A DNA stretch of 64,000 nucleotides, taken from NCBI GenBank assembly GCA_030599585.1, contig JAUVNS010000011.1:128001-192000 (forward strand), read 5' to 3'. Within the stretch, counting starts at the first letter, position 1, and the number at the start of each line of letters is the position of its first letter. The translations under genes were made by a program, and so were the position numbers. The notes under the pieces were generated by a model. It worked only from the letters and a program-made list of their open reading frames with translations, was not told where the DNA came from and did no database searches. Origin of the DNA: Promethearchaeota archaeon (GTDB lineage: Archaea > Asgardarchaeota > Lokiarchaeia > Sigyniarchaeales > SOKP01). Shown one piece after another: positions 17,647 to 25,388 of this stretch.

Positions 17647-18519
17647 TTAAATTGTATCTTCTCCTACTCCTAATTGTGAAATCATCATCCTCTTGAGCTC
17701 TTCTTTGTTTTTAGGTAATCCAAACATATCCGCATATTTATCGGTTGTATTTAATTCTGCTGACCTTCCTTTTTTTACCGCCGTTATTAGATCGTTGTCC
17801 AAGAGGTATTTCACATGCTCGTAAGCGCCACTCCCTCTTAATTTAATAACGGTTGATTTTAAAATTGGCTGTTTCAGAGCAATTACTGTAAGTGTTCTTA
17901 AATAGCGCTCAGCAATAGCACCACCTTTAGCGAATTTGGAAACTGTTTCTGTAAGTTCCGGTCTTAGCTGCATTTGATATTTTTCTCCAATTTGGGCTAC
18001 AATCAATGCACCTTCACGGTCCAAATAGTCAAAAGCAACTACATTTACAAGTTCTTCGACTTCTTTTTTTGGGATTTCTAATTTAGTTGATAATTCTTCT
18101 ACATCCAGAGGTCTACCAGCCGCGTAAAGAGCACCCTCTATTAAATTTCTCCGTAGAATTTTTAATTGTAATTCTAATTCTTCCTTCGTGAGTTCTTTAG
18201 GTATATGGGATTCAACTATATCCGCTCCTATAACTTCGGTCTCTCGTTTGCTTAAGCTTTCTTCTGACGGGTCAAGACTTGATAAATTTTCTTCCTCAAT
18301 ACTTAATTCTTCTTCAATAAACTCTTGGCTATCTTCTTCATCAGAATCTTGTTTAAGATAATCTTCGATGGTTTCTTTGGTCTCTAATTCGATCTCAATA
18401 TCCTCTAAATTCCTTTCTTCTTGAGTAATTTCTTCGGCATCGGTCTCATCTAAAGGTTCTTCTTCATTCGTTTCGTCTTTGAATTGATTTTCCTGTTCTT
18501 TTTCATTATTTTCGTTCAG
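17647..18519 (-). CDS. scpB: SMC-associated kite protein ScpB with acidic N-terminal extension
   Basis: Frame is open from TAG 18523-25 to the stop. NLIEGALYAAGRPL, LRTLTVIALKQPI, LRG, TTDKYADMFGL. CTG start 6 nt after GGTGA. The ORF track (18024) truncates the first domain. Confidence 0.88.
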   Translation of the reverse strand: MNENNEKEQENQFKDETNEEEPLDETDAEEITQEERNLEDIEIELETKETIEDYLKQDSDEEDSQEFIEEELSIEEENLSSLDPSEESLSKRETEVIGADIVESHIPKELTKEELELQLKILRRNLIEGALYAAGRPLDVEELSTKLEIPKKEVEELVNVVAFDYLDREGALIVAQIGEKYQMQLRPELTETVSKFAKGGAIAERYLRTLTVIALKQPILKSTVIKLRGSGAYEHVKYLLDNDLITAVKKGRSAELNTTDKYADMFGLPKNKEELKRMMISQLGVGEDTI

Positions 18520-18548
18520 ATTCTATCACCAAAAATTTGGATTGTAAT

Positions 18549-19556
18549 TTAACTTTTTAAATTTATTGAGAAATCTTTAAAATCTTCGTCTTGAAATAGT
18601 TCTAACTTATTCCCTGTTGAGAGGAACATTAAAGCCAAAAACATGCGAACAAAAGCGAACTTCTTACCAATGTCGCTTTTTTCTTCTATGTTAATAATTT
18701 CTGCCATGTCATAAAAGGAGGTTTCTTTATCATCGAGGTTTATTTTAGTTTTTATTCTGTTAAACCAAGCGTTGTGTAACTCTTCCACAGTTTGCTCCTT
18801 CCCGCTAATGTGTTTCAAAAGTTCTTTTGGTAGTTGTGCTTTAGATTTTTTTTGAATTCGCTGTTCCTTTAATTCATCCCGCCTCATCCTTCGCCTTTTT
18901 AGTTTTTCTTTCTTCTGCATAGTCTCAATAATAGCAGATCTCATAGCGTCAAATAATTCGTCTTTAGTGGAGATTAACATTTTAGGCTGAATAGGTTGTG
19001 GTAAAGATTTGGGTATTGATCTACCGTGCCTTGCTCTAAATTGCGCCAATTCCTCCTTTTTTTGAATTTGTTCTTCGTCCCGTATTATGCTAGAGATTTT
19101 GTAATGATGTAATACTGCTGAAGTTTTAAGCGCGATTCCTGAAATTTTATAATTAATTAAATCTTCATGAAGCATGTTATTGAAGAATTTGTCAACTAAT
19201 GCTGCCAGATCGTAAAATGCAACATTTGATTCCTTAGCAACTTCGGGGTCTAGAAGGCTTGAAAAAGGTGGTTTATGCCAGAACTTTAACTCTAACTTTT
19301 CTTTATACAATAAAGCGGGGTCTTCTTCCTCGCCGGCGACTAACTCTTCTTCCAACACTTCTACATCCACGTTATCTTGAGTTCGATCTACAAATTCTGG
19401 ATGTGAAGCGATCTTTTCTATGAATTTAATAATTTCATTCTTTTTTGATTTAGACGGTATTTTTATGTTGTTTTTACTTGCAAATTCCCTTAATTTCTTT
19501 ACAGACCATTCACTGAAGTTGTATTTTATCTCTTCACTTTCATTTTCTGGAACGAT
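18549..19556 (-). CDS. scpA: Kleisin ScpA with N-terminal HeH/SAP-like domain
   Basis: YDLAALVDKF...ISGIALKTSAVL and C-terminal FLALMFL...LELFQDEDFKD kleisin motifs; located between smc and scpB. Frame is open upstream of the track GTG (19370); exact start (ATC 19556 or GTT 19553 after AGGTG) is uncertain. Confidence 0.82.
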   Translation of the reverse strand: MVPENESEEIKYNFSEWSVKKLREFASKNNIKIPSKSKKNEIIKFIEKIASHPEFVDRTQDNVDVEVLEEELVAGEEEDPALLYKEKLELKFWHKPPFSSLLDPEVAKESNVAFYDLAALVDKFFNNMLHEDLINYKISGIALKTSAVLHHYKISSIIRDEEQIQKKEELAQFRARHGRSIPKSLPQPIQPKMLISTKDELFDAMRSAIIETMQKKEKLKRRRMRRDELKEQRIQKKSKAQLPKELLKHISGKEQTVEELHNAWFNRIKTKINLDDKETSFYDMAEIINIEEKSDIGKKFAFVRMFLALMFLSTGNKLELFQDEDFKDFSINLKS

Positions 19557-19579
19557 TATACACCTGAAGCTTATAATTT

Positions 19580-22500
19580 TTAATTTTCTTCAATAGTAGG
19601 GGGTACATCCGGAAGTTCGAGTAACCTTTTTGCTTCTTCTTCTAAATCGACACTAAAAATGTCGGTGATACCGCTTTGTTGCATGGAGACACCGTATATG
19701 CGATCTGCGTTAACTATATTCTCTTCACGATGACTTATTACCAAAAATTGCGCTTGTCTGGCAAATTCTTTGATTACTACACTTACTCTATGAACATTGG
19801 GCCCATCTAATGCTGCATCTATCTCATCCATAATATAAAATGGCGCAGGATAAAATTCCTGAACAGCAAAAATAAATGACAAAGCAACGAGTGTTTTTTC
19901 TCCTCCGCTCAGTATTTCTAAACTGGAGATACGCTTCCCACGAGGTCTAGCTTCTATGCTACATCCACCTTCAAAAGGTTTATCTGGTCTGTCGAGAATC
20001 ATTTTTGCAGATCCCCCCGGTGAAAGCTTCTGAAATATGCGAGCAAACTCACGATTAATTTCGTGGTAAGCCTTCATGAATGTTCGAGTTTTTTCCAATT
20101 CGATTTTTTCAATAGCGTCGAGAATTGCTTTTCGTTCACGTTGTATTGTTTGCCTTCTCATATCTATTTCGTCAAATCTTTCTTTTACAGTATCATATTG
20201 CGTAATAGCTTTTAAGTTAACTGGTTCCAAAGCTTTTTTCTTGTTAGTAGCTGTAGAAATATCTGATTGTAACCCGGATTCTGAAAGCTCGTCAGTCACT
20301 ACCGGCAATGCGCCGTAATCCTTCGATCTCTGGTAAAGAGTTTCTATTTGATCTGTAGTAATAATCTTTTTTGATTCAAAATTGTTTAGTTTTGAATTTT
20401 GCATAGAAATATCAGAGCGTAGGTCGTTTATTACTTTCTGATAATTTTTTTGTTTTTGCCAGGATATATCTTTTCCTTGAATCTGTTTATTAATTTCTTC
20501 CTGTTTTACGTTCTTTTTGTCTTCTTCTTGTTTTAATTCAGTTTCAATGTTTTCAATGTCTTTTACTATTAATTCTATTTGTTTCTCAGTTTCTTTAATG
20601 TCTTGGTTAAGAGATATTATTTTTTGTTCTCGTTCTTTATTTTTATTTAATTCGTTTAATTTTGCTTGTATTTTTTGAAGATCTTTATTGAATTTATTTA
20701 ATTCTTTTTGAACTTTCTTTTGAGCTTCCAACTCTTTGTTTTTATCTTCTCTTAAAGCATCTATGACTAATTGAATTTCAGTGACTTTCTTTTGTACCTC
20801 ATCTACTTGAGTATTAAAACCCTCAACATCTAGAGTACAAGTTTTAATATTTGCTTTAGCTTCCAAGTTTTCCTTAGCTAGTTCTTCAATTGAATTGATA
20901 ACCATCATAACATTTTCAAGTGCTCTTAGGTTATCCATTGTACTTTCTAATTTTTTATTCTGATCACCAATGTGTGCCCTTAACTTTTCGGTATTCTCCC
21001 AAAACTTATTTTTTTCTAAAATATTAGAATCGATTTTTAATGTTAAAGCTTCTTGTTCTAAATTGAGATTTTTAATGTTTTCTTCAGTGTTTATTATGGT
21101 ATTTTTCTTATTTTCTATATTTGAATTTAATTCTTGGACATTTTTCTCAATATCAATAATCTTTTCATAAAAATTTTGTATTCCTTGCAATTCTTGAAGT
21201 CTTTTTTGCAGATCGTCTAATCCTTGTTGCTTTACTTCTATATTTTTCTTGATGGTAGAAACTTTATCCCAGTAATCCTCTTTGAGTTGTTTTAAATTGT
21301 TTATTTCTTCATTGAAATTTTCTTTTTGTTTTTCTCTTATTACATTATTCCTCTGTTTAACCTCAGCATCAGATTTTTCGATTTTTTCAAGTAATTCAGT
21401 GATTCTTTTATTAACTTTTTCTAACCTCTTATTAGTAACTGATAAATCGTCAGAATCATGTTTTTCTTGAGTATTTATCCGGGTTAAATCTTTCTCAATT
21501 TTGTTTAGATCTACATTTTGAGATGCAATATTTTCAGTAATCTCTTCAAGCTGTTTATACTGCTCTTGGGATTTTGACATGGTGAGTTTTCGCAATGATA
21601 AGTATACATTCTCAAGAATTTCCATTAAATCTTGCACAAAGCTATCAAATGTTGATGTAGATTGTTGAATCTCTACATCAGCAGTTTCCTTTACAGAATC
21701 AATTAACTGATCTATCGTGGTATCAACATTTTCAGTAAAAAGAGTTAATGTCTGAAGTATAGACTTGAGAGTTTCAGACACTTCAGCATCCTCTGGTTTC
21801 TGTTCTGCTTCTGCTTCAGCTTCAGAGCTTACGTCTTCAATCGTCGTCATAATATCAATAATGTCAAGGACAAATTGTTTAAAGTTGACCGCTGATGTAT
21901 CAATTGCCTCAGCGTTAGACTGTTGAATGTTACTCTTGATAGATTCAACGGATATATTGATATTCTGAGTTAGCATGTTCAGTATTTGGAGGATTCCGGT
22001 TATATCTTCAGTATTTCTTTCGTATTCTTTTTCTGTATTTTCTATTTTAGCTAACAAATTATTTTTCTCAGTGGTTAGCTCTCCTAACCGTCTTTGAATA
22101 TTATCTTTTTTTTTATTAAGCCCTTCTGATTCAGAGCTAATTTTAGTTAAATTTGCGTTCAGAGTTGACGATTTTAATTCTAAATCTTGTTTTTCTCTCT
22201 CAAGATTTGTCAATTCTTTTTTTAATAGATTTGACCTCGTATTAATATTATCAATTTTAGTTTTGTTATCATTAATTTCTGATTCAATAGAATCTTGTTT
22301 CATTAACAATAATTCTAAATCTTGTTCATTTTTTCTATAAATAGAATCTTCATCTTTTAATTGTTGTCGATAACTGTTTAATTCGTTAGTTAGCGTGTCT
22401 TTTTCCTTTAAAAGCTCTTTTAATGCCTCTTCTGTGTCTTTCCCTTTACTTAATTCTTTGATTTTTTCTTCAGTTTTAATTTTATCTGAGTTCAATGTCT

Positions 22501-24049
22501 CTATCCTATCGGTGTTCATCTTAATCTCTGTAGTTAGTGACGATAACATAGATTTAAAATCTGTTGCCTTTGAATTAAGTTTGTTCTTATCTTCTTGTAG
22601 GGTTATAATAATTTTCTCTAGATCTTGTTGATTTTCGTTCTCTTTTGAGATTTTTATATTCAAGTCATTAATTTCTTTTCTTGTGGCTTCAGCTTCATTT
22701 TTTGTGTTGGCTATCGCATCTTCAATGCTTTCTGATTCTCCTTTTAATTTGCTAAGATCTAGTTCTAATTTCTGTTTTTTTCCTTCGTTTTTTTTAATAT
22801 TTTCTTTCAGAATTTTAATTTGAGCTTTATTCGATGAAATATTTTGCTTTATAATGGAGATTTCTCCATTAAATCCTGTTTTTACATCGCTTTGATCTTT
22901 AATTTTTGCATCAATATCAGCTTGTTTTTGATGTTTACTTTCTATTTCTGCTTTTGCTGCTTCAATCTGGCTCTCTGTATCTGCTACAACCTTCCTTTCT
23001 GATTCAATTAAAGAATCAAATGTTTGATCTTCATCAAGAACCATCTGTAATTTTTCCAATGTATTAATTTCTTGAGAAATTTTTTCAACTGACTTATTTG
23101 CGAGGGTTAAAGATGTTTGATTTGAAGATTGTTGTGTTTTAAGATGAGTAATTTTTTCAGTGATTATTTCCCTTTCTTTTTCTTTTTCAGTTATGGTTTT
23201 TTGAATATTTTCCATAACCAATGATTCTTGTTTTATAATGTCATCCTGTCTTGTTAATTTTTCTTTTAACTCTTCTAAAATTGTATTAGATTCTTCAATA
23301 CTTTTTTCTAGATCATTTTCTTCCTTCCTTAATTTCTCAATCTTTAATGCTATCAATTGAGCGTTGTATAAGTCGATTTGTTCATCTAACTCTTTCCATG
23401 CCAAAGCATCATTCTTTTCCTTTTCTACTTTCTTTAATTGAGAAGAAACTTCTTTGAAAATTGCTTCAAATTGGCCTAGATCTCTTTCAGCCTTCTCTAA
23501 TTCCTTCATAGTTCCATCTTTCATCTCATCGTATTTCTGTAGGCCAATAAGTTCTTCTATAAATATTCTACGGGCTACCGGGTTCATGTGAGTTAATTCT
23601 ACTATTTTCCCTTGCAGAACGAATTGATTGCTTCCATCAGGATCTACATTTGCTGCTGCAAGAGCATTAAGAATTTGAGTTCTAGTGGATTTTTTACCGT
23701 TCATCTTATAACCTCCACCCCCACCTCGTTGAATTGTTCGAGTAACTTCAAATGTTTCTGTTCCACCTGGAAAGATTTCCTCTGAGTTATCGAAATATAA
23801 TGTAACCGAAGCTCTATTTGAAGGGTTTTTTCCTCGGGATCCGGCAAAAATCAAATCTTCAAGGCTCTTAGCTCTCATAGTTTTTTTGCTTAGCCTACCT
23901 AGAGCAAACGTTAAAGCGTCAATAATATTAGATTTTCCTGCACCATTTGGGCCTACTATACATGTAAAACCACTCGAAAGTCTAAGAGTAACAGTTCTGT
24001 CACCAAATGATTTAAATCCGGTCATAGAAATTTTTTTGATGTAAGTCAA
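19580..24049 (-). CDS. smc: SMC chromosome segregation ATPase, extra long, non-canonical hinge
   Basis: GFKSF, Walker A GPNGAGKS, Q-loop FVLQG, PVNLKA, LSGGEK, Walker B/D-loop IMDEIDAALD, ISHR; long coiled coils. Confidence 0.95.
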   Translation of the reverse strand: MTYIKKISMTGFKSFGDRTVTLRLSSGFTCIVGPNGAGKSNIIDALTFALGRLSKKTMRAKSLEDLIFAGSRGKNPSNRASVTLYFDNSEEIFPGGTETFEVTRTIQRGGGGGYKMNGKKSTRTQILNALAAANVDPDGSNQFVLQGKIVELTHMNPVARRIFIEELIGLQKYDEMKDGTMKELEKAERDLGQFEAIFKEVSSQLKKVEKEKNDALAWKELDEQIDLYNAQLIALKIEKLRKEENDLEKSIEESNTILEELKEKLTRQDDIIKQESLVMENIQKTITEKEKEREIITEKITHLKTQQSSNQTSLTLANKSVEKISQEINTLEKLQMVLDEDQTFDSLIESERKVVADTESQIEAAKAEIESKHQKQADIDAKIKDQSDVKTGFNGEISIIKQNISSNKAQIKILKENIKKNEGKKQKLELDLSKLKGESESIEDAIANTKNEAEATRKEINDLNIKISKENENQQDLEKIIITLQEDKNKLNSKATDFKSMLSSLTTEIKMNTDRIETLNSDKIKTEEKIKELSKGKDTEEALKELLKEKDTLTNELNSYRQQLKDEDSIYRKNEQDLELLLMKQDSIESEINDNKTKIDNINTRSNLLKKELTNLEREKQDLELKSSTLNANLTKISSESEGLNKKKDNIQRRLGELTTEKNNLLAKIENTEKEYERNTEDITGILQILNMLTQNINISVESIKSNIQQSNAEAIDTSAVNFKQFVLDIIDIMTTIEDVSSEAEAEAEQKPEDAEVSETLKSILQTLTLFTENVDTTIDQLIDSVKETADVEIQQSTSTFDSFVQDLMEILENVYLSLRKLTMSKSQEQYKQLEEITENIASQNVDLNKIEKDLTRINTQEKHDSDDLSVTNKRLEKVNKRITELLEKIEKSDAEVKQRNNVIREKQKENFNEEINNLKQLKEDYWDKVSTIKKNIEVKQQGLDDLQKRLQELQGIQNFYEKIIDIEKNVQELNSNIENKKNTIINTEENIKNLNLEQEALTLKIDSNILEKNKFWENTEKLRAHIGDQNKKLESTMDNLRALENVMMVINSIEELAKENLEAKANIKTCTLDVEGFNTQVDEVQKKVTEIQLVIDALREDKNKELEAQKKVQKELNKFNKDLQKIQAKLNELNKNKEREQKIISLNQDIKETEKQIELIVKDIENIETELKQEEDKKNVKQEEINKQIQGKDISWQKQKNYQKVINDLRSDISMQNSKLNNFESKKIITTDQIETLYQRSKDYGALPVVTDELSESGLQSDISTATNKKKALEPVNLKAITQYDTVKERFDEIDMRRQTIQRERKAILDAIEKIELEKTRTFMKAYHEINREFARIFQKLSPGGSAKMILDRPDKPFEGGCSIEARPRGKRISSLEILSGGEKTLVALSFIFAVQEFYPAPFYIMDEIDAALDGPNVHRVSVVIKEFARQAQFLVISHREENIVNADRIYGVSMQQSGITDIFSVDLEEEAKRLLELPDVPPTIEEN

Positions 24050-24203: not shown

Positions 24204-25388
24204 TTAGTGTTTGGTGAAGATAGCATCCATGATAGGTTTTAGTTGCTTTGGGTTTATGACCATAAAGTAATTATCATAGTTCAAGACGTTGTCGTTAAAG
24301 TAACGAAAATTATTTACATTATTTTTTTTTGAAGCATTTAATATCCCTATATTGCGCAAATTAACGATTAAATGTTTAAATTCCTCTATATTCTTTTCAT
24401 AATCTATTGATTCACAAGTTACATAGTACAGTTCTCTTAATTCCTGGATAGTTATATAAAGATTTGCTTTTTTTAGAAAATAATTAGACAAATTATCCAG
24501 AAAAATTAAATTTAACAGATCTGACTCTGAGATATAGCTTACCATACTGAATTCATCTGTAATTTGAAGGGTGTCAAATTGATTTTGAAGAATATCATAA
24601 ATCTCGAACTTTTTCAAAGTAATTTTTTGATTTAAAACAGGATAAAGCTCTCTTAAAATTTCGATACCTTTTCCGGGAACAGGTACATGGTGCTCGAAAA
24701 TTAAATCAGTAATTAAATCTATTAACTCGTTATCTATCTCATTTTTGAAAGCCAATGAAATTCTTTGCTTTATAATGTCGTTAAGCTCGGAGAATGAAAA
24801 ATAATCTAACTTCTTCTTAAAGTCAAATTCACTCATAATTTCTAGGATAGACGATCTTAAAACTTGATTACCCGTAGATATTACATTAATTTTGTTTTCT
24901 TTGCCGTATTTTAAAAATTTTTTAAAAGCCTCTGGTTGTATGTGTTCAATGTTATTAAACACTATGGTGATATTATGGTCTACTTTTCTACATACAAGCT
25001 TAAATAAGTTCCATAAATCCAAGATAGATGAATTTAGGAACGATTTATAATCAAAATTGATGTTCTTTCTACTTCCAACTTCAGCTATTAACGAAACTAA
25101 AATCTCTTCCACACTTTTTTCTGAACAATCAATTTGGATTTTTATAAGTTCAGGATTTAAAGTAGATATGTCGTTCAAGACCGAATTTACAATGACCTTT
25201 TTCCCTATACCTTGGATTCCTTGAAATAATATATTCAGTTGAAATTCATCATGTAATGAATCTTTAAGAATTGAATAGAGCGCTTTTTCTTCCGTTTTCC
25301 GATGTAATATTTTAGGAGGAATGTAGGTCTGATCAAATAACGCTCTTGGACCTACAAATTCGTTATTTATCCTTTGTGCAGAAATCAT
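24204..25388 (-). CDS. Degenerate Orc1/Cdc6-like AAA+ / winged-helix protein
   Basis: LFDQTYIPPKILHR, GIQGIGKK, IDC, YFSFSELNDIIKQR, C-terminal wH LRNIGIL; Walker B reads VFNNIE. Confidence 0.72.
   Translation of the reverse strand: MISAQRINNEFVGPRALFDQTYIPPKILHRKTEEKALYSILKDSLHDEFQLNILFQGIQGIGKKVIVNSVLNDISTLNPELIKIQIDCSEKSVEEILVSLIAEVGSRKNINFDYKSFLNSSILDLWNLFKLVCRKVDHNITIVFNNIEHIQPEAFKKFLKYGKENKINVISTGNQVLRSSILEIMSEFDFKKKLDYFSFSELNDIIKQRISLAFKNEIDNELIDLITDLIFEHHVPVPGKGIEILRELYPVLNQKITLKKFEIYDILQNQFDTLQITDEFSMVSYISESDLLNLIFLDNLSNYFLKKANLYITIQELRELYYVTCESIDYEKNIEEFKHLIVNLRNIGILNASKKNNVNNFRYFNDNVLNYDNYFMVINPKQLKPIMDAIFTKH

What the first reader, a model, noticed from the sequence alone, without database searches (positions are those of the whole stretch)
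21605..22003. SMC without a canonical hinge: the apex is a duplicated helical module
Seen: the heads are canonical, but the midpoint (aa ~683-815) has neither the Gly-rich alpha/beta SMC hinge (GX6GX3GG) nor a Rad50 CXXC hook. Instead two ungapped 55-aa repeats (ITGILQILNMLTQNIN...FKQFVLDIIDIMTTI and LKSILQTLTLFTENVD...FDSFVQDLMEILENV; 13 identities) are joined by an acidic linker. Inference: a different all-helical dimerisation domain in an otherwise standard smc-scpA-scpB operon, relevant to how eukaryotic SMC complexes arose.
Basis: partly seen in the sequence, partly recalled or inferred. Interest (0 to 1): 0.8.

Follow-up and report, generated by a model that had tools for sequence, protein, structure and literature searches.

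The report
Hinge-less long-armed SMC paralogue of Lokiarchaeia
This Loki-type Asgard archaeon's only condensin-type SMC has normal ATPase heads and its own kleisin and ScpB genes, but its extra-long arms end in a very conserved, duplicated, acidic helical hairpin where the SMC hinge normally sits, so it appears to work without a hinge.

Summary
The 1489-aa SMC (window 19580-24049, minus strand) has no SMC_hinge match, no CxxC hook and almost no glycine at its centre. Two 55-aa repeats (aa 683-737 and 761-815) are real: Smith-Waterman 83 against 31.5±5.8 for shuffles, and profile-profile E 3.6e-13.

Two AlphaFold runs (pLDDT 87 and 84) give one continuous helical hairpin. It turns at aa 749-752, inside the variable acidic linker.

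The module is the best-conserved part of the protein: 30 of 32 positions are ≥90% conserved, against 0.74-0.86 in the heads and about 0.3 in the arms. It is rich in hydrophobic residues and has a net charge of -21.

New here: this is a paralogue, not a remodelled canonical SMC. The module occurs in one Lokiarchaeia order only (67 of 75 genomes searched there). Sister genera, including cultured Lokiarchaeum ossiferum, also keep a hinge-bearing SMC of about 1200 aa with its own ScpB. This genome's genus has lost that copy.

My best reading is apex dimerisation as a four-helix bundle. That is inferred, not shown. The link to eukaryotic SMC origins is not supported.

The scan has flagged the same feature before in other genomes. 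No paper I found describes it.

The parts
19580..24049 (-). Long hinge-less SMC gene (1489 aa, TTG start)
   Evidence: ORF and translation. SMC_N 4.4e-42 with no SMC_hinge. TIGR02169 scores 590 bits, below its cut-off of 729. More than 110 homologues of about 1475-1487 aa.
23540..24049 (-). N-terminal half of the ATPase head (about aa 1-170; Walker A, R-loop, Q-loop)
   Evidence: Motifs are visible. PDB Smc head matches. 74% of positions are ≥90% conserved.
22004..23539 (-). Ascending coiled-coil arm (about aa 171-682), roughly 180 aa longer than in hinge-bearing SMCs
   Evidence: AF2 gives a continuous helix from aa 561. The hydrophobic pattern is confined to a/d positions. 34% of positions are conserved.
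21839..22003 (-). Repeat 1 of the apex module (aa 683-737), containing conserved block A (aa 685-716)
   Evidence: Block A has 30 of 32 positions ≥90% conserved. Helical, pLDDT about 80-88.
21770..21838 (-). Variable acidic linker (aa 738-760) containing the predicted hairpin turn at aa 749-752
   Evidence: 0 of 23 positions conserved, and indels among homologues. The loop falls at the same residues in both AF2 runs.
21605..21769 (-). Repeat 2 of the apex module (aa 761-815)
   Evidence: Helical with a kink at aa 774.
21530..21604 (-). Continuation of conserved block B (aa 795-835 spans the end of repeat 2 and this stretch)
   Evidence: 32 of 41 positions are ≥90% conserved.
20153..21529 (-). 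Descending coiled-coil arm (about aa 841-1299)
   Evidence: AF2 gives helix to aa 960. TIGR02169 aligns profile positions 746-1165 to aa 1053-1469. 29% of positions are conserved.
19580..20152 (-). C-terminal half of the ATPase head (signature LSGGEK, Walker B, D-loop, H-loop)
   Evidence: 86% of positions are conserved.
18549..19589 (-). Kleisin (ScpA-type) gene. The frame is open from 19589 and the first canonical start is the GTG at 19370. The N-terminal HeH/Rho_N-like stretch lies upstream of that GTG.
   Evidence: hhalign against canonical Asgard kleisins gives 99.3%, E 1.4e-20. Weak PDB hits are all to ScpA (6ivh, 0.0026). Ish1 9.8e-5 and Rho_N 0.004 at aa 24-58 of the open frame.
17647..18522 (-). 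ScpB (kite) gene. The frame is open for 291 codons: an acidic N-terminal extension of about 125 aa, then a full ScpB. There is no ATG/GTG/TTG before codon 167.
   Evidence: SMC_ScpB 2.3e-33 covering profile positions 2-158 of 160 at aa 127-277. Start codons.

Best explanation
The gene encodes the SMC subunit of a lineage-specific, paralogous Smc-ScpA-ScpB complex found in one order of Lokiarchaeia.

Shown:
- It has canonical ABC-ATPase heads.
- It has its own kleisin and ScpB.
- Each arm is about 570 residues to the tip, against about 340 in ordinary SMCs.
- There is no hinge. The arm runs as an unbroken antiparallel helical hairpin and turns inside a variable acidic loop at aa 749-752.
- The last ~70 residues on each strand are a duplicated unit that is the most conserved part of the protein.

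Inferred:
- Two such hairpins, one from each protomer, pack their surplus hydrophobic faces into a four-helix bundle. This joins the two arms permanently at the apex and so replaces the hinge's dimerisation role.
- The hinge's DNA-binding role is not replaced at the apex, because the module has a net charge of -21. It may have moved to the basic, HeH-like or Cys/His N-terminal extensions carried by the partner kleisins.

In this genome's genus the hinge-bearing canonical SMC has been lost. The hinge-less complex is therefore the only condensin-type SMC left, alongside an SMC5/6-related one.
For: No hinge and an all-helical apex:
- Pfam and motif searches.
- No profile match to hinge-bearing SMCs.
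- Two independent AF2 runs on different fragments and alignments give the same helix-loop-helix with the turn at aa 749-752 (pLDDT 86.8 and 84.0).
- Structure searches return only long helical hairpins and no hinge: chemoreceptor 2ch7/3g67, the Rad50 coiled coil, dynein stalks.

The module is functional:
- Block A has 30 of 32 positions ≥90% conserved and block B 32 of 41, among 114 homologues most of which are only 65-82% identical overall. The heads score 0.74-0.86, the arms about 0.3 and the linker 0.

An extra buried surface:
- Hydrophobic fraction is 0.39 in the module against 0.27 in the arms.
- Hydrophobic residues occur at e/f/g positions, not only a/d as in the arms.

The duplication is real.

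It is a paralogue with its own partners:
- The module is found in 60 of 68 and 7 of 7 genomes of the two families of one order, and essentially nowhere else in the phylum.
- Strong-hinge SMCs of about 1200 aa co-exist with it in sister genera, and each SMC has its own adjacent ScpB.
- In the head tree the long clade is monophyletic (100) and nested among canonical Asgard SMCs. A single clade with the order's canonical SMCs is not rejected (p-AU 0.45).
- Kleisin homology and ScpB.

Canonical SMC is absent from this genome:
- The only hinge is on contig C40.
- tblastn with a sister genus's canonical SMC finds only C11 and C40.

Supporting precedents:
- B. subtilis Smc with its hinge replaced by the Rad50 zinc hook supports normal growth (PMC5344682).
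- A head-less protein of about 1044 aa in the sister family carries two tandem copies of the whole module, four units in all. This is what a single-chain four-helix version would look like.
Against: - No dimer was predicted or measured; the tools fold single chains only.
- AF2 confidence in the module (about 77-88) is lower than in the flanking arms (about 96).
- Strong conservation on every helical face could equally mean a binding site for another factor.
- Two highly acidic hairpins would repel each other unless cations or a basic partner intervene.
- SMC arms can zip into rods and heads can engage, so an apex contact is not strictly required for dimerisation.
- The position of the long clade among canonical SMCs is unresolved and comes from a quick tree.
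Confidence: 0.6

Rival explanations
1. The apex module is a docking platform rather than the dimer interface. The conserved acidic hairpin binds another factor, for example a basic chromatin protein, the basic or HeH tail of the kleisin, or in the sister family the head-less module protein. This would resemble the conserved tip of a chemoreceptor hairpin. The two SMCs would then be held together only by arm-arm zipping, head engagement and the kleisin.
For: - Nearly every residue of block A is invariant, polar faces included.
- The net charge of -21 suits a basic ligand.
- The partner kleisins carry basic N-terminal extensions.
- The closest structural analogues are chemoreceptor hairpins, whose conserved tips bind partners.
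- A second module-bearing protein exists in the sister family.
- Arm contacts contribute to dimerisation of hinge-less Bs Smc (PMC5526789).
Against: - This genome has only one module-bearing protein.
- No candidate ligand was tested.
- The surplus hydrophobic positions favour a buried helix-helix interface over a polar docking surface.
- The two roles are not mutually exclusive.
Confidence: 0.22
2. The protein does not form an apex-joined homodimer at all. It acts either as a one-armed SMC-like ATPase or as a heterodimer with another SMC-family protein, such as the SMC5/6-related one on contig C40.
For: - There is no recognisable dimerisation fold.
- The genome encodes a second SMC-like protein.
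Against: - The C40 protein has its own hinge, arms about 200 residues shorter on each side, and no module, so the geometries do not match.
- The long SMC keeps a complete kleisin and kite set of its own, as homodimeric prokaryotic Smc does.
- The extreme conservation of the apex would be left unexplained.
Confidence: 0.1
3. The region is a degenerate or cryptic hinge, or an assembly or annotation artefact.
For: None beyond its position at the midpoint of the protein.
Against: - No SMC_hinge hit at E≤0.1.
- No profile similarity to hinge-bearing SMCs.
- All-helical models in two runs.
- The same architecture and length in more than 110 homologues from independent assemblies, including closed genomes.
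Confidence: 0.03

Closest known systems
Prokaryotic Smc of Smc-ScpAB (Pyrococcus and B. subtilis Smc; TIGR02168/TIGR02169; PDB 5xei, 5xns, 4i99, 3zgx)
   Same: - ATPase heads: 1.8e-118 to Pyrococcus Smc heads, with all nucleotide-binding motifs present.
- An antiparallel coiled-coil arm.
- Adjacent kleisin and ScpB genes.
- Heads nest among canonical Asgard SMCs.
   Different: - No hinge domain.
- Arms about 1.6 times longer.
- The apex is a duplicated acidic helical hairpin.
- It scores below both curated equivalog cut-offs.
- It is a paralogue that co-exists with a normal Smc in sister genera.
Engineered B. subtilis Smc(Zh), in which the hinge is replaced by the Pyrococcus Rad50 zinc hook (Bürmann et al. 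2017, PMC5344682)
   Same: A condensin-type Smc that functions with a structurally unrelated apex dimeriser. It is proof of principle for a hinge-free Smc.
   Different: Smc(Zh) is artificial and uses a CxxC zinc hook. The protein here is natural, has no Cys at the apex, and has much longer arms.
Rad50/SbcC
   Same: An SMC-superfamily ATPase whose arm ends in a helical hairpin without an α/β hinge. The Rad50 coiled coil (7zr1) is among the top structural matches.
   Different: - No CxxC hook.
- The heads are far closer to Smc than to Rad50 (E 1e-118 against about 1e-6).
- The partners are a kleisin and ScpB.
'Hinge-less' SMC homologues of marine Actinobacteria (Sussfeld et al. 2025, PMC12153180)
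   Same: A natural SMC clade reported to lack the hinge and the CxxC hook.
   Different: That clade is bacterial and was described from metagenomes. The text I read reports no conserved duplicated apex module and no dedicated kleisin/kite operon. I did not compare the sequences, so any relationship is untested.
Cytoplasmic signalling hairpin of methyl-accepting chemotaxis proteins (2ch7, 3g67)
   Same: The best structural analogues (Foldseek E 3e-4; VIA Z 11.9 over 201 residues). From general knowledge, this is a long helical hairpin that homodimerises into a four-helix bundle and has a highly conserved tip region.
   Different: There is no sequence relationship (10-13% identity). A Z of this size is common for long helices, as the tool's own note says. 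It is an analogy for the proposed packing, not evidence of homology.

Membership tests
Canonical SMC (Smc of Smc-ScpAB; TIGR02168/TIGR02169) | ABC-type ATPase head formed by the N- and C-termini, with Walker A, Q-loop, signature motif, Walker B and H-loop | tested here: met
   Motifs are visible in the translation. SMC_N 4.4e-42. Pyrococcus and Bacillus Smc head structures match at 1e-118 to 1e-62.
Canonical SMC (Smc of Smc-ScpAB; TIGR02168/TIGR02169) | Central globular SMC hinge domain (PF06470, Gly-rich α/β fold) | tested here: not met
   - No PF06470 hit at E≤0.1. The same model scores 5e-32 on a sister genus's canonical SMC and 2e-9 on this genome's other SMC-like protein.
- Profile-profile comparison with hinge-bearing SMCs gives probability <1%.
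- AF2 is all-helical.
Canonical SMC (Smc of Smc-ScpAB; TIGR02168/TIGR02169) | Long antiparallel intramolecular coiled-coil arm | tested here: met
   AF2 gives a helical hairpin over aa 560-960. Structural hits include SMC arm segments (5xg2 and Smc5/6 arms). The arms are about 1.6 times the usual length.
Canonical SMC (Smc of Smc-ScpAB; TIGR02168/TIGR02169) | Score above the curated equivalog cut-off | tested here: not met
   TIGR02169 scores 590.1 against a cut-off of 729.4. TIGR02168 scores 566.8 against 567.35.
Canonical SMC (Smc of Smc-ScpAB; TIGR02168/TIGR02169) | Dedicated kleisin (ScpA) and kite (ScpB) partners | tested here: met
   The downstream kleisin gives hhalign 99.3% against canonical Asgard kleisins, and its weak PDB hits are only to ScpA. 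ScpB scores 2.3e-33. Physical interaction was not tested.
Rad50/SbcC | CxxC zinc hook at the coiled-coil apex | tested here: not met
   There is no CxxC anywhere. The only Cys residues are at 30, 1071 and 1363.
SMC5/6-related archaeal SMC | Heads group with the SMC5/6-related clade | tested here: not met
   In the head tree the SMC5/6-like sequences are separated by a branch with 100 support, and the long SMC sits among canonical Asgard SMCs.
Four-helix-bundle homodimer of helical hairpins (chemoreceptor-like packing) | Two hairpins packing into a four-helix bundle | not testable with these tools
   Only single chains can be folded here. Indirect support comes from surplus hydrophobic positions and a monomer fold match to 2ch7/3g67.

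The most novel reading that the evidence does not exclude
The duplicated acidic helical module is a previously undescribed, constitutive apex-dimerisation domain: a four-helix bundle made of two hairpins. It lets a natural Smc-kleisin-kite motor with arms of roughly 85 nm work without any hinge. In many Lokiarchaeia this hinge-free machine has fully replaced the canonical condensin-type SMC. That would show in nature that the hinge fold, and DNA binding by the hinge, are dispensable for SMC function.
Probability: 0.5. Interest if true: 0.75.

Novelty: new variant of a known kind. Interest (0 to 1): 0.62.

Why it matters
The hinge is treated as a universal part of SMC-kleisin complexes and is implicated in dimerisation, DNA binding and DNA entry.

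- Natural test case. A condensin-type SMC that has swapped the hinge for a helical module, lengthened its arms by about 60%, and become the only such complex in many genomes asks directly which hinge functions are essential.
- Tractable. The protein is present in cultured Lokiarchaeum ossiferum and in closed genomes, so the question can be addressed biochemically.
- Annotation. These proteins are labelled 'chromosome segregation protein SMC' or 'AAA family ATPase' with no sign that they lack a hinge.
- Asgard SMC inventories. This order has up to three SMC complexes.
- Limits. It does not bear directly on the origin of eukaryotic SMCs, because it is a derived, order-specific paralogue.

Tried and rejected
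- Degenerate hinge. Rejected by Pfam and by the profile-profile comparison.
- Intramolecular four-helix bundle. I tested whether each 55-aa repeat is itself a helix-turn-helix, so that the two repeats would form an intramolecular bundle. I refolded a short fragment (aa 650-850) with a deeper alignment. It gave the same extended hairpin, so there is no support, although AF2 may be biased towards continuous helices.
- Distant relatives of the module. A search of 1.84 billion representative proteins gave only 28 hits, all Loki-type SMCs, fragments of them, or the head-less paralogue. The ESM Atlas gave no usable hit.
- Structure searches gave only generic helical hairpins, with no specific family.
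- The Pfam families PF24161 and PF23649 listed for some homologues did not reappear on rescanning and look like coiled-coil noise.
- Module hits outside the order (G193, G205) lie on short contigs. The G193 protein is identical in its head regions to a same-order-type sequence, and the G205 hits are about 75% identical to the query. I read them as mis-binned contigs, but did not prove it.
- The 'careful' IQ-TREE run did not finish in the time allowed. The quick tree and an AU test were used instead.
- Literature searches found no description of a hinge-less Asgard SMC. The SMC-evolution preprint lists the Asgard SMC, kleisin and kite paralogues without mentioning the hinge.
Full report
**What is there**

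Window 19580-24049 (minus strand) is a 1489-codon ORF with a TTG start. The finding's coordinates, 21605-22003, are aa 683-815, which is the exact middle of the protein.

Pfam sees only head-type families: SMC_N at 4.4e-42, plus AAA_23, AAA_15, AAA_21 and AAA_29. There is no SMC_hinge at E≤0.1. NCBIfam gives SMC_prok_A at 590 bits and SMC_prok_B at 567 bits, both below their curated cut-offs.

Against solved structures the heads match Pyrococcus Smc at 1.8e-118, Bacillus Smc at about 1e-70, and eukaryotic SMC1-4 at 1e-38 to 1e-50. Rad50 reaches only about 1e-6. Walker A, Q-loop, signature motif, Walker B and H-loop can all be read in the translation.

The centre has no CxxC, the whole protein has three Cys, and there are 0-2 Gly per 50 residues between aa 500 and 1000.

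**The repeat is real**

- Both quoted 55-mers are at aa 683-737 and 761-815, with 13 ungapped identities.
- Smith-Waterman scores 83 against 31.5±5.8 for 2000 shuffles, none of which reached it. The best score against any other arm segment is 45.
- Profiles built from 114 homologues align repeat 1 to repeat 2 over 55 ungapped columns, with hhalign probability 97.9% and E 3.6e-13.

**Fold**

Two AlphaFold2 runs used different fragments and alignments: aa 560-960 with 38 sequences, and aa 650-850 with 56 sequences. Mean pLDDT was 86.8 and 84.0.

Both give the same picture: one helix up to aa 748, a four-residue loop at 749-752, a helix over 753-773, a kink at 774, then helix again. The apex is therefore the tip of an unbroken antiparallel hairpin, and the turn lies in the acidic linker.

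By the symmetry of the hairpin, repeat 1 packs antiparallel against repeat 2.

Foldseek and VIA-align return only long helical hairpins: chemoreceptor signalling domains 2ch7 and 3g67, the Rad50 coiled coil, the MukB elbow, dynein stalks and SMC arm pieces. None is a hinge. Scores of this size are generic for long helices.

A profile of the module has no similarity to a profile of 17 hinge-bearing Asgard SMCs (probability <1%).

**The module is under the strongest constraint in the protein**

The comparison set is 114 full-length homologues, all but three of which are about 65-100% identical overall. The fraction of positions ≥90% conserved is:

| Region | Fraction of positions ≥90% conserved |
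|---|---|
| Block A (aa 685-716) | 0.94 (30 of 32) |
| Block B (aa 795-835) | 0.78 (32 of 41) |
| ATPase heads | 0.74-0.86 |
| Arms | about 0.3 |
| Acidic linker | 0 (with indels) |

The module is richer in hydrophobic residues than the arms (0.39 against 0.27). It has 5 K+R against 26 D+E in 133 residues, whereas the arms are roughly charge-balanced. Its helices carry hydrophobic residues at e, f and g positions as well as a and d; the arm windows I checked are almost purely a/d.

*Where the module occurs*

- A search with the module alone against 1.84 billion representative proteins gives 28 hits. These are Loki-type SMCs of about 1296-1487 aa, fragments of them, and a few proteins without an SMC head.
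- Among 301 genomes of the phylum, the module is found in 60 of 68 and 7 of 7 genomes of the two families of this genome's order.
- Elsewhere it is essentially absent. Two exceptions lie on short, probably mis-binned contigs.

*Where the hinge occurs*

- PF06470 searched in the ≥90%-complete genomes shows that other Asgard families have a strong hinge (1e-32 to 1e-39) in an SMC of about 1190-1215 aa.
- Often there is also a weak hinge (1e-8 to 1e-14) in a protein of about 1120-1170 aa, the SMC5/6-related type described by Yoshinaga & Inagaki 2021 and by the 2024/25 preprint.
- In this genome's genus and four sister genera only the weak hinge is present.
- In other genera of the same family, and in the sister family, a strong-hinge SMC of about 1196-1207 aa co-exists with the hinge-less one of about 1487-1509 aa. 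This group includes Ca. Lokiarchaeum ossiferum and Ca. Harpocratesius repetitus, named. Each SMC has its own ScpB gene next to it.

*Phylogeny*

A head-domain tree rooted on SMC5/6-like sequences makes the long SMCs one clade (100) on a long stem (0.74). The clade is nested among canonical Asgard SMCs, and its exact position is unresolved. Holding it together with the order's canonical SMCs is not rejected (p-AU 0.45).

*This genome*

The only hinge in this genome is in the SMC5/6-like gene on contig C40. A tblastn search with a sister genus's canonical SMC finds only the long SMC and that gene.

*Conclusion*

The whole smc-scpA-scpB unit was duplicated in or near the ancestor of this order. 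One copy lost the hinge and lengthened its arms. This genus later lost the canonical copy.

**Partners**

Kleisin. The downstream ORF has no Pfam ScpA hit. Even so, its family profile matches canonical Asgard kleisins at 99.3% (E 1.4e-20), and its weak PDB hits are only to ScpA N- and C-domains.

The N-terminal extension of the long-type kleisins differs by lineage:
- HeH/Rho_N-like in this genome;
- lysine-rich in the sister family;
- a Cys/His knuckle in one sister genus.

ScpB. It is complete (2.3e-33) only when the whole open frame is read, and it then carries an acidic N-terminal extension of about 125 aa. Long-type ScpBs in other genomes share this extension.

**How it most likely works**

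Shown:
- a head-competent SMC with its own kleisin and kite;
- arms of roughly 570 residues to the tip;
- a hinge-free, all-helical, extremely conserved apex.

Inferred:
- Two hairpins pack into a four-helix bundle and hold the dimer together at the apex. The grounds are the surplus hydrophobic faces, the conservation, the absence of any other dimeriser, and the experimental precedent that B. subtilis Smc works with a Rad50 zinc hook in place of its hinge (PMC5344682).
- In the sister family a head-less protein of about 1044 aa carries two tandem copies of the module, four units in all. It looks like a single-chain version of such a bundle.
- The apex is too acidic to bind DNA. The DNA-binding role of the hinge may have moved to the kleisin extensions, but this is speculation.

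The main rival is that the apex is a docking site for a basic partner. The two readings are not mutually exclusive.

**Comparison with what is known, and novelty**

By head sequence, partners and phylogeny this protein descends from condensin-type Smc. By architecture it fails the defining hinge test and the curated equivalog cut-offs, so I file it as a new variant rather than a canonical member.

It is not Rad50/SbcC, since it has no hook, and it is not the SMC5/6-related type.

Hinge-less SMC homologues have been reported from marine Actinobacteria (PMC12153180), and hinge swaps have been engineered. I found no paper that describes a hinge-less Asgard SMC.

Earlier notes of this scan flagged the same feature in other genomes and reached similar readings. 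I saw them after the analysis above, and the main points were tested here independently.

Noticed in passing
window 18517-18522, window 19550-19589, and L002:10440-10468 (G000 contig C40): Three genes of this genome (scpB, scpA and the SMC5/6-like gene) have homology-supported N-termini lying in open frame upstream of any ATG/GTG/TTG, by 166, 73 and 99 codons respectively. Each has a GGTG(A)-type Shine-Dalgarno-like motif just before near-cognate codons: AAT CTG for scpB, ATA ATC for scpA, AAG ACG for the SMC5/6-like gene. The orthologues I compared in other genomes (scpA, scpB and one SMC5/6-like gene) have a canonical start, nearly always ATG, within the first 14 codons of the frame. This suggests initiation at non-canonical codons in this genus.
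   Followed up: partly
G000 contig C40:106977-110468 (L002:6977-10468, minus strand): A second SMC-family gene of about 1164 codons, with Walker A GPNWSGKT and a weak but significant SMC_hinge (2e-9). It is probably the SMC5/6-related archaeal SMC. It is followed by ORFs of 219 and 171 aa with no family hit, which are candidate kleisin and kite genes.
   Followed up: partly
window 17647-18522 (minus strand); also L003:10771-11775, L006:5001-5888, L011:5900-6787: The ScpB of the long-SMC operon carries a strongly acidic N-terminal extension of about 110-170 aa in every genome looked at. ScpBs next to hinge-bearing SMCs are about 190-230 aa and have no such extension.
   Followed up: partly
window 19371-19589; L003:9644-10753; L006:5915-6934: The N-terminal extension of the long-type kleisin differs by lineage: HeH/Ish1/Rho_N-like here, a lysine-rich tail of about 90 aa in the sister family, and a C-x2-C...H-x-C knuckle in one sister genus. 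All three look like nucleic-acid-binding add-ons.
   Followed up: partly
L004:5177-9390, L007:4604-8774, L009, L027, L028, L029: Where the hinge-bearing SMC survives in this order, its gene is followed directly by ScpB with no kleisin gene between them. L. ossiferum (L010) and the other Asgard families examined have smc-kleisin-scpB. The two SMCs may share one kleisin, or the canonical kleisin may lie elsewhere.
   Followed up: no
L005:3000-6131 (minus strand, Ca. Harpocratesius repetitus); also P0145, P0147: A protein of about 1044 aa with no SMC head carries two tandem copies of the apex module (aa 76-224, E 6e-13; aa 343-465, E 0.003) and a lysine-rich C-terminal tail. It is found only in the sister family. 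A HEAT-repeat protein with weak Cnd1/PDS5-type hits is encoded nearby at L005:8955-10007.
   Followed up: partly
window 24204-25388 (minus strand): An Orc1/Cdc6-like gene sits directly upstream of smc on the same strand. It scores only weakly against the family models (TIGR02928 at 1.8e-13, far below the cut-off).
   Followed up: no
G193 contig C70 (L030) and G205 contigs C234, C256, C278: The only strong module hits outside the order lie on short contigs. In the head regions, the G193 protein is identical to a sequence from the same-order group. These are probably mis-binned contigs in those genome bins.
   Followed up: no
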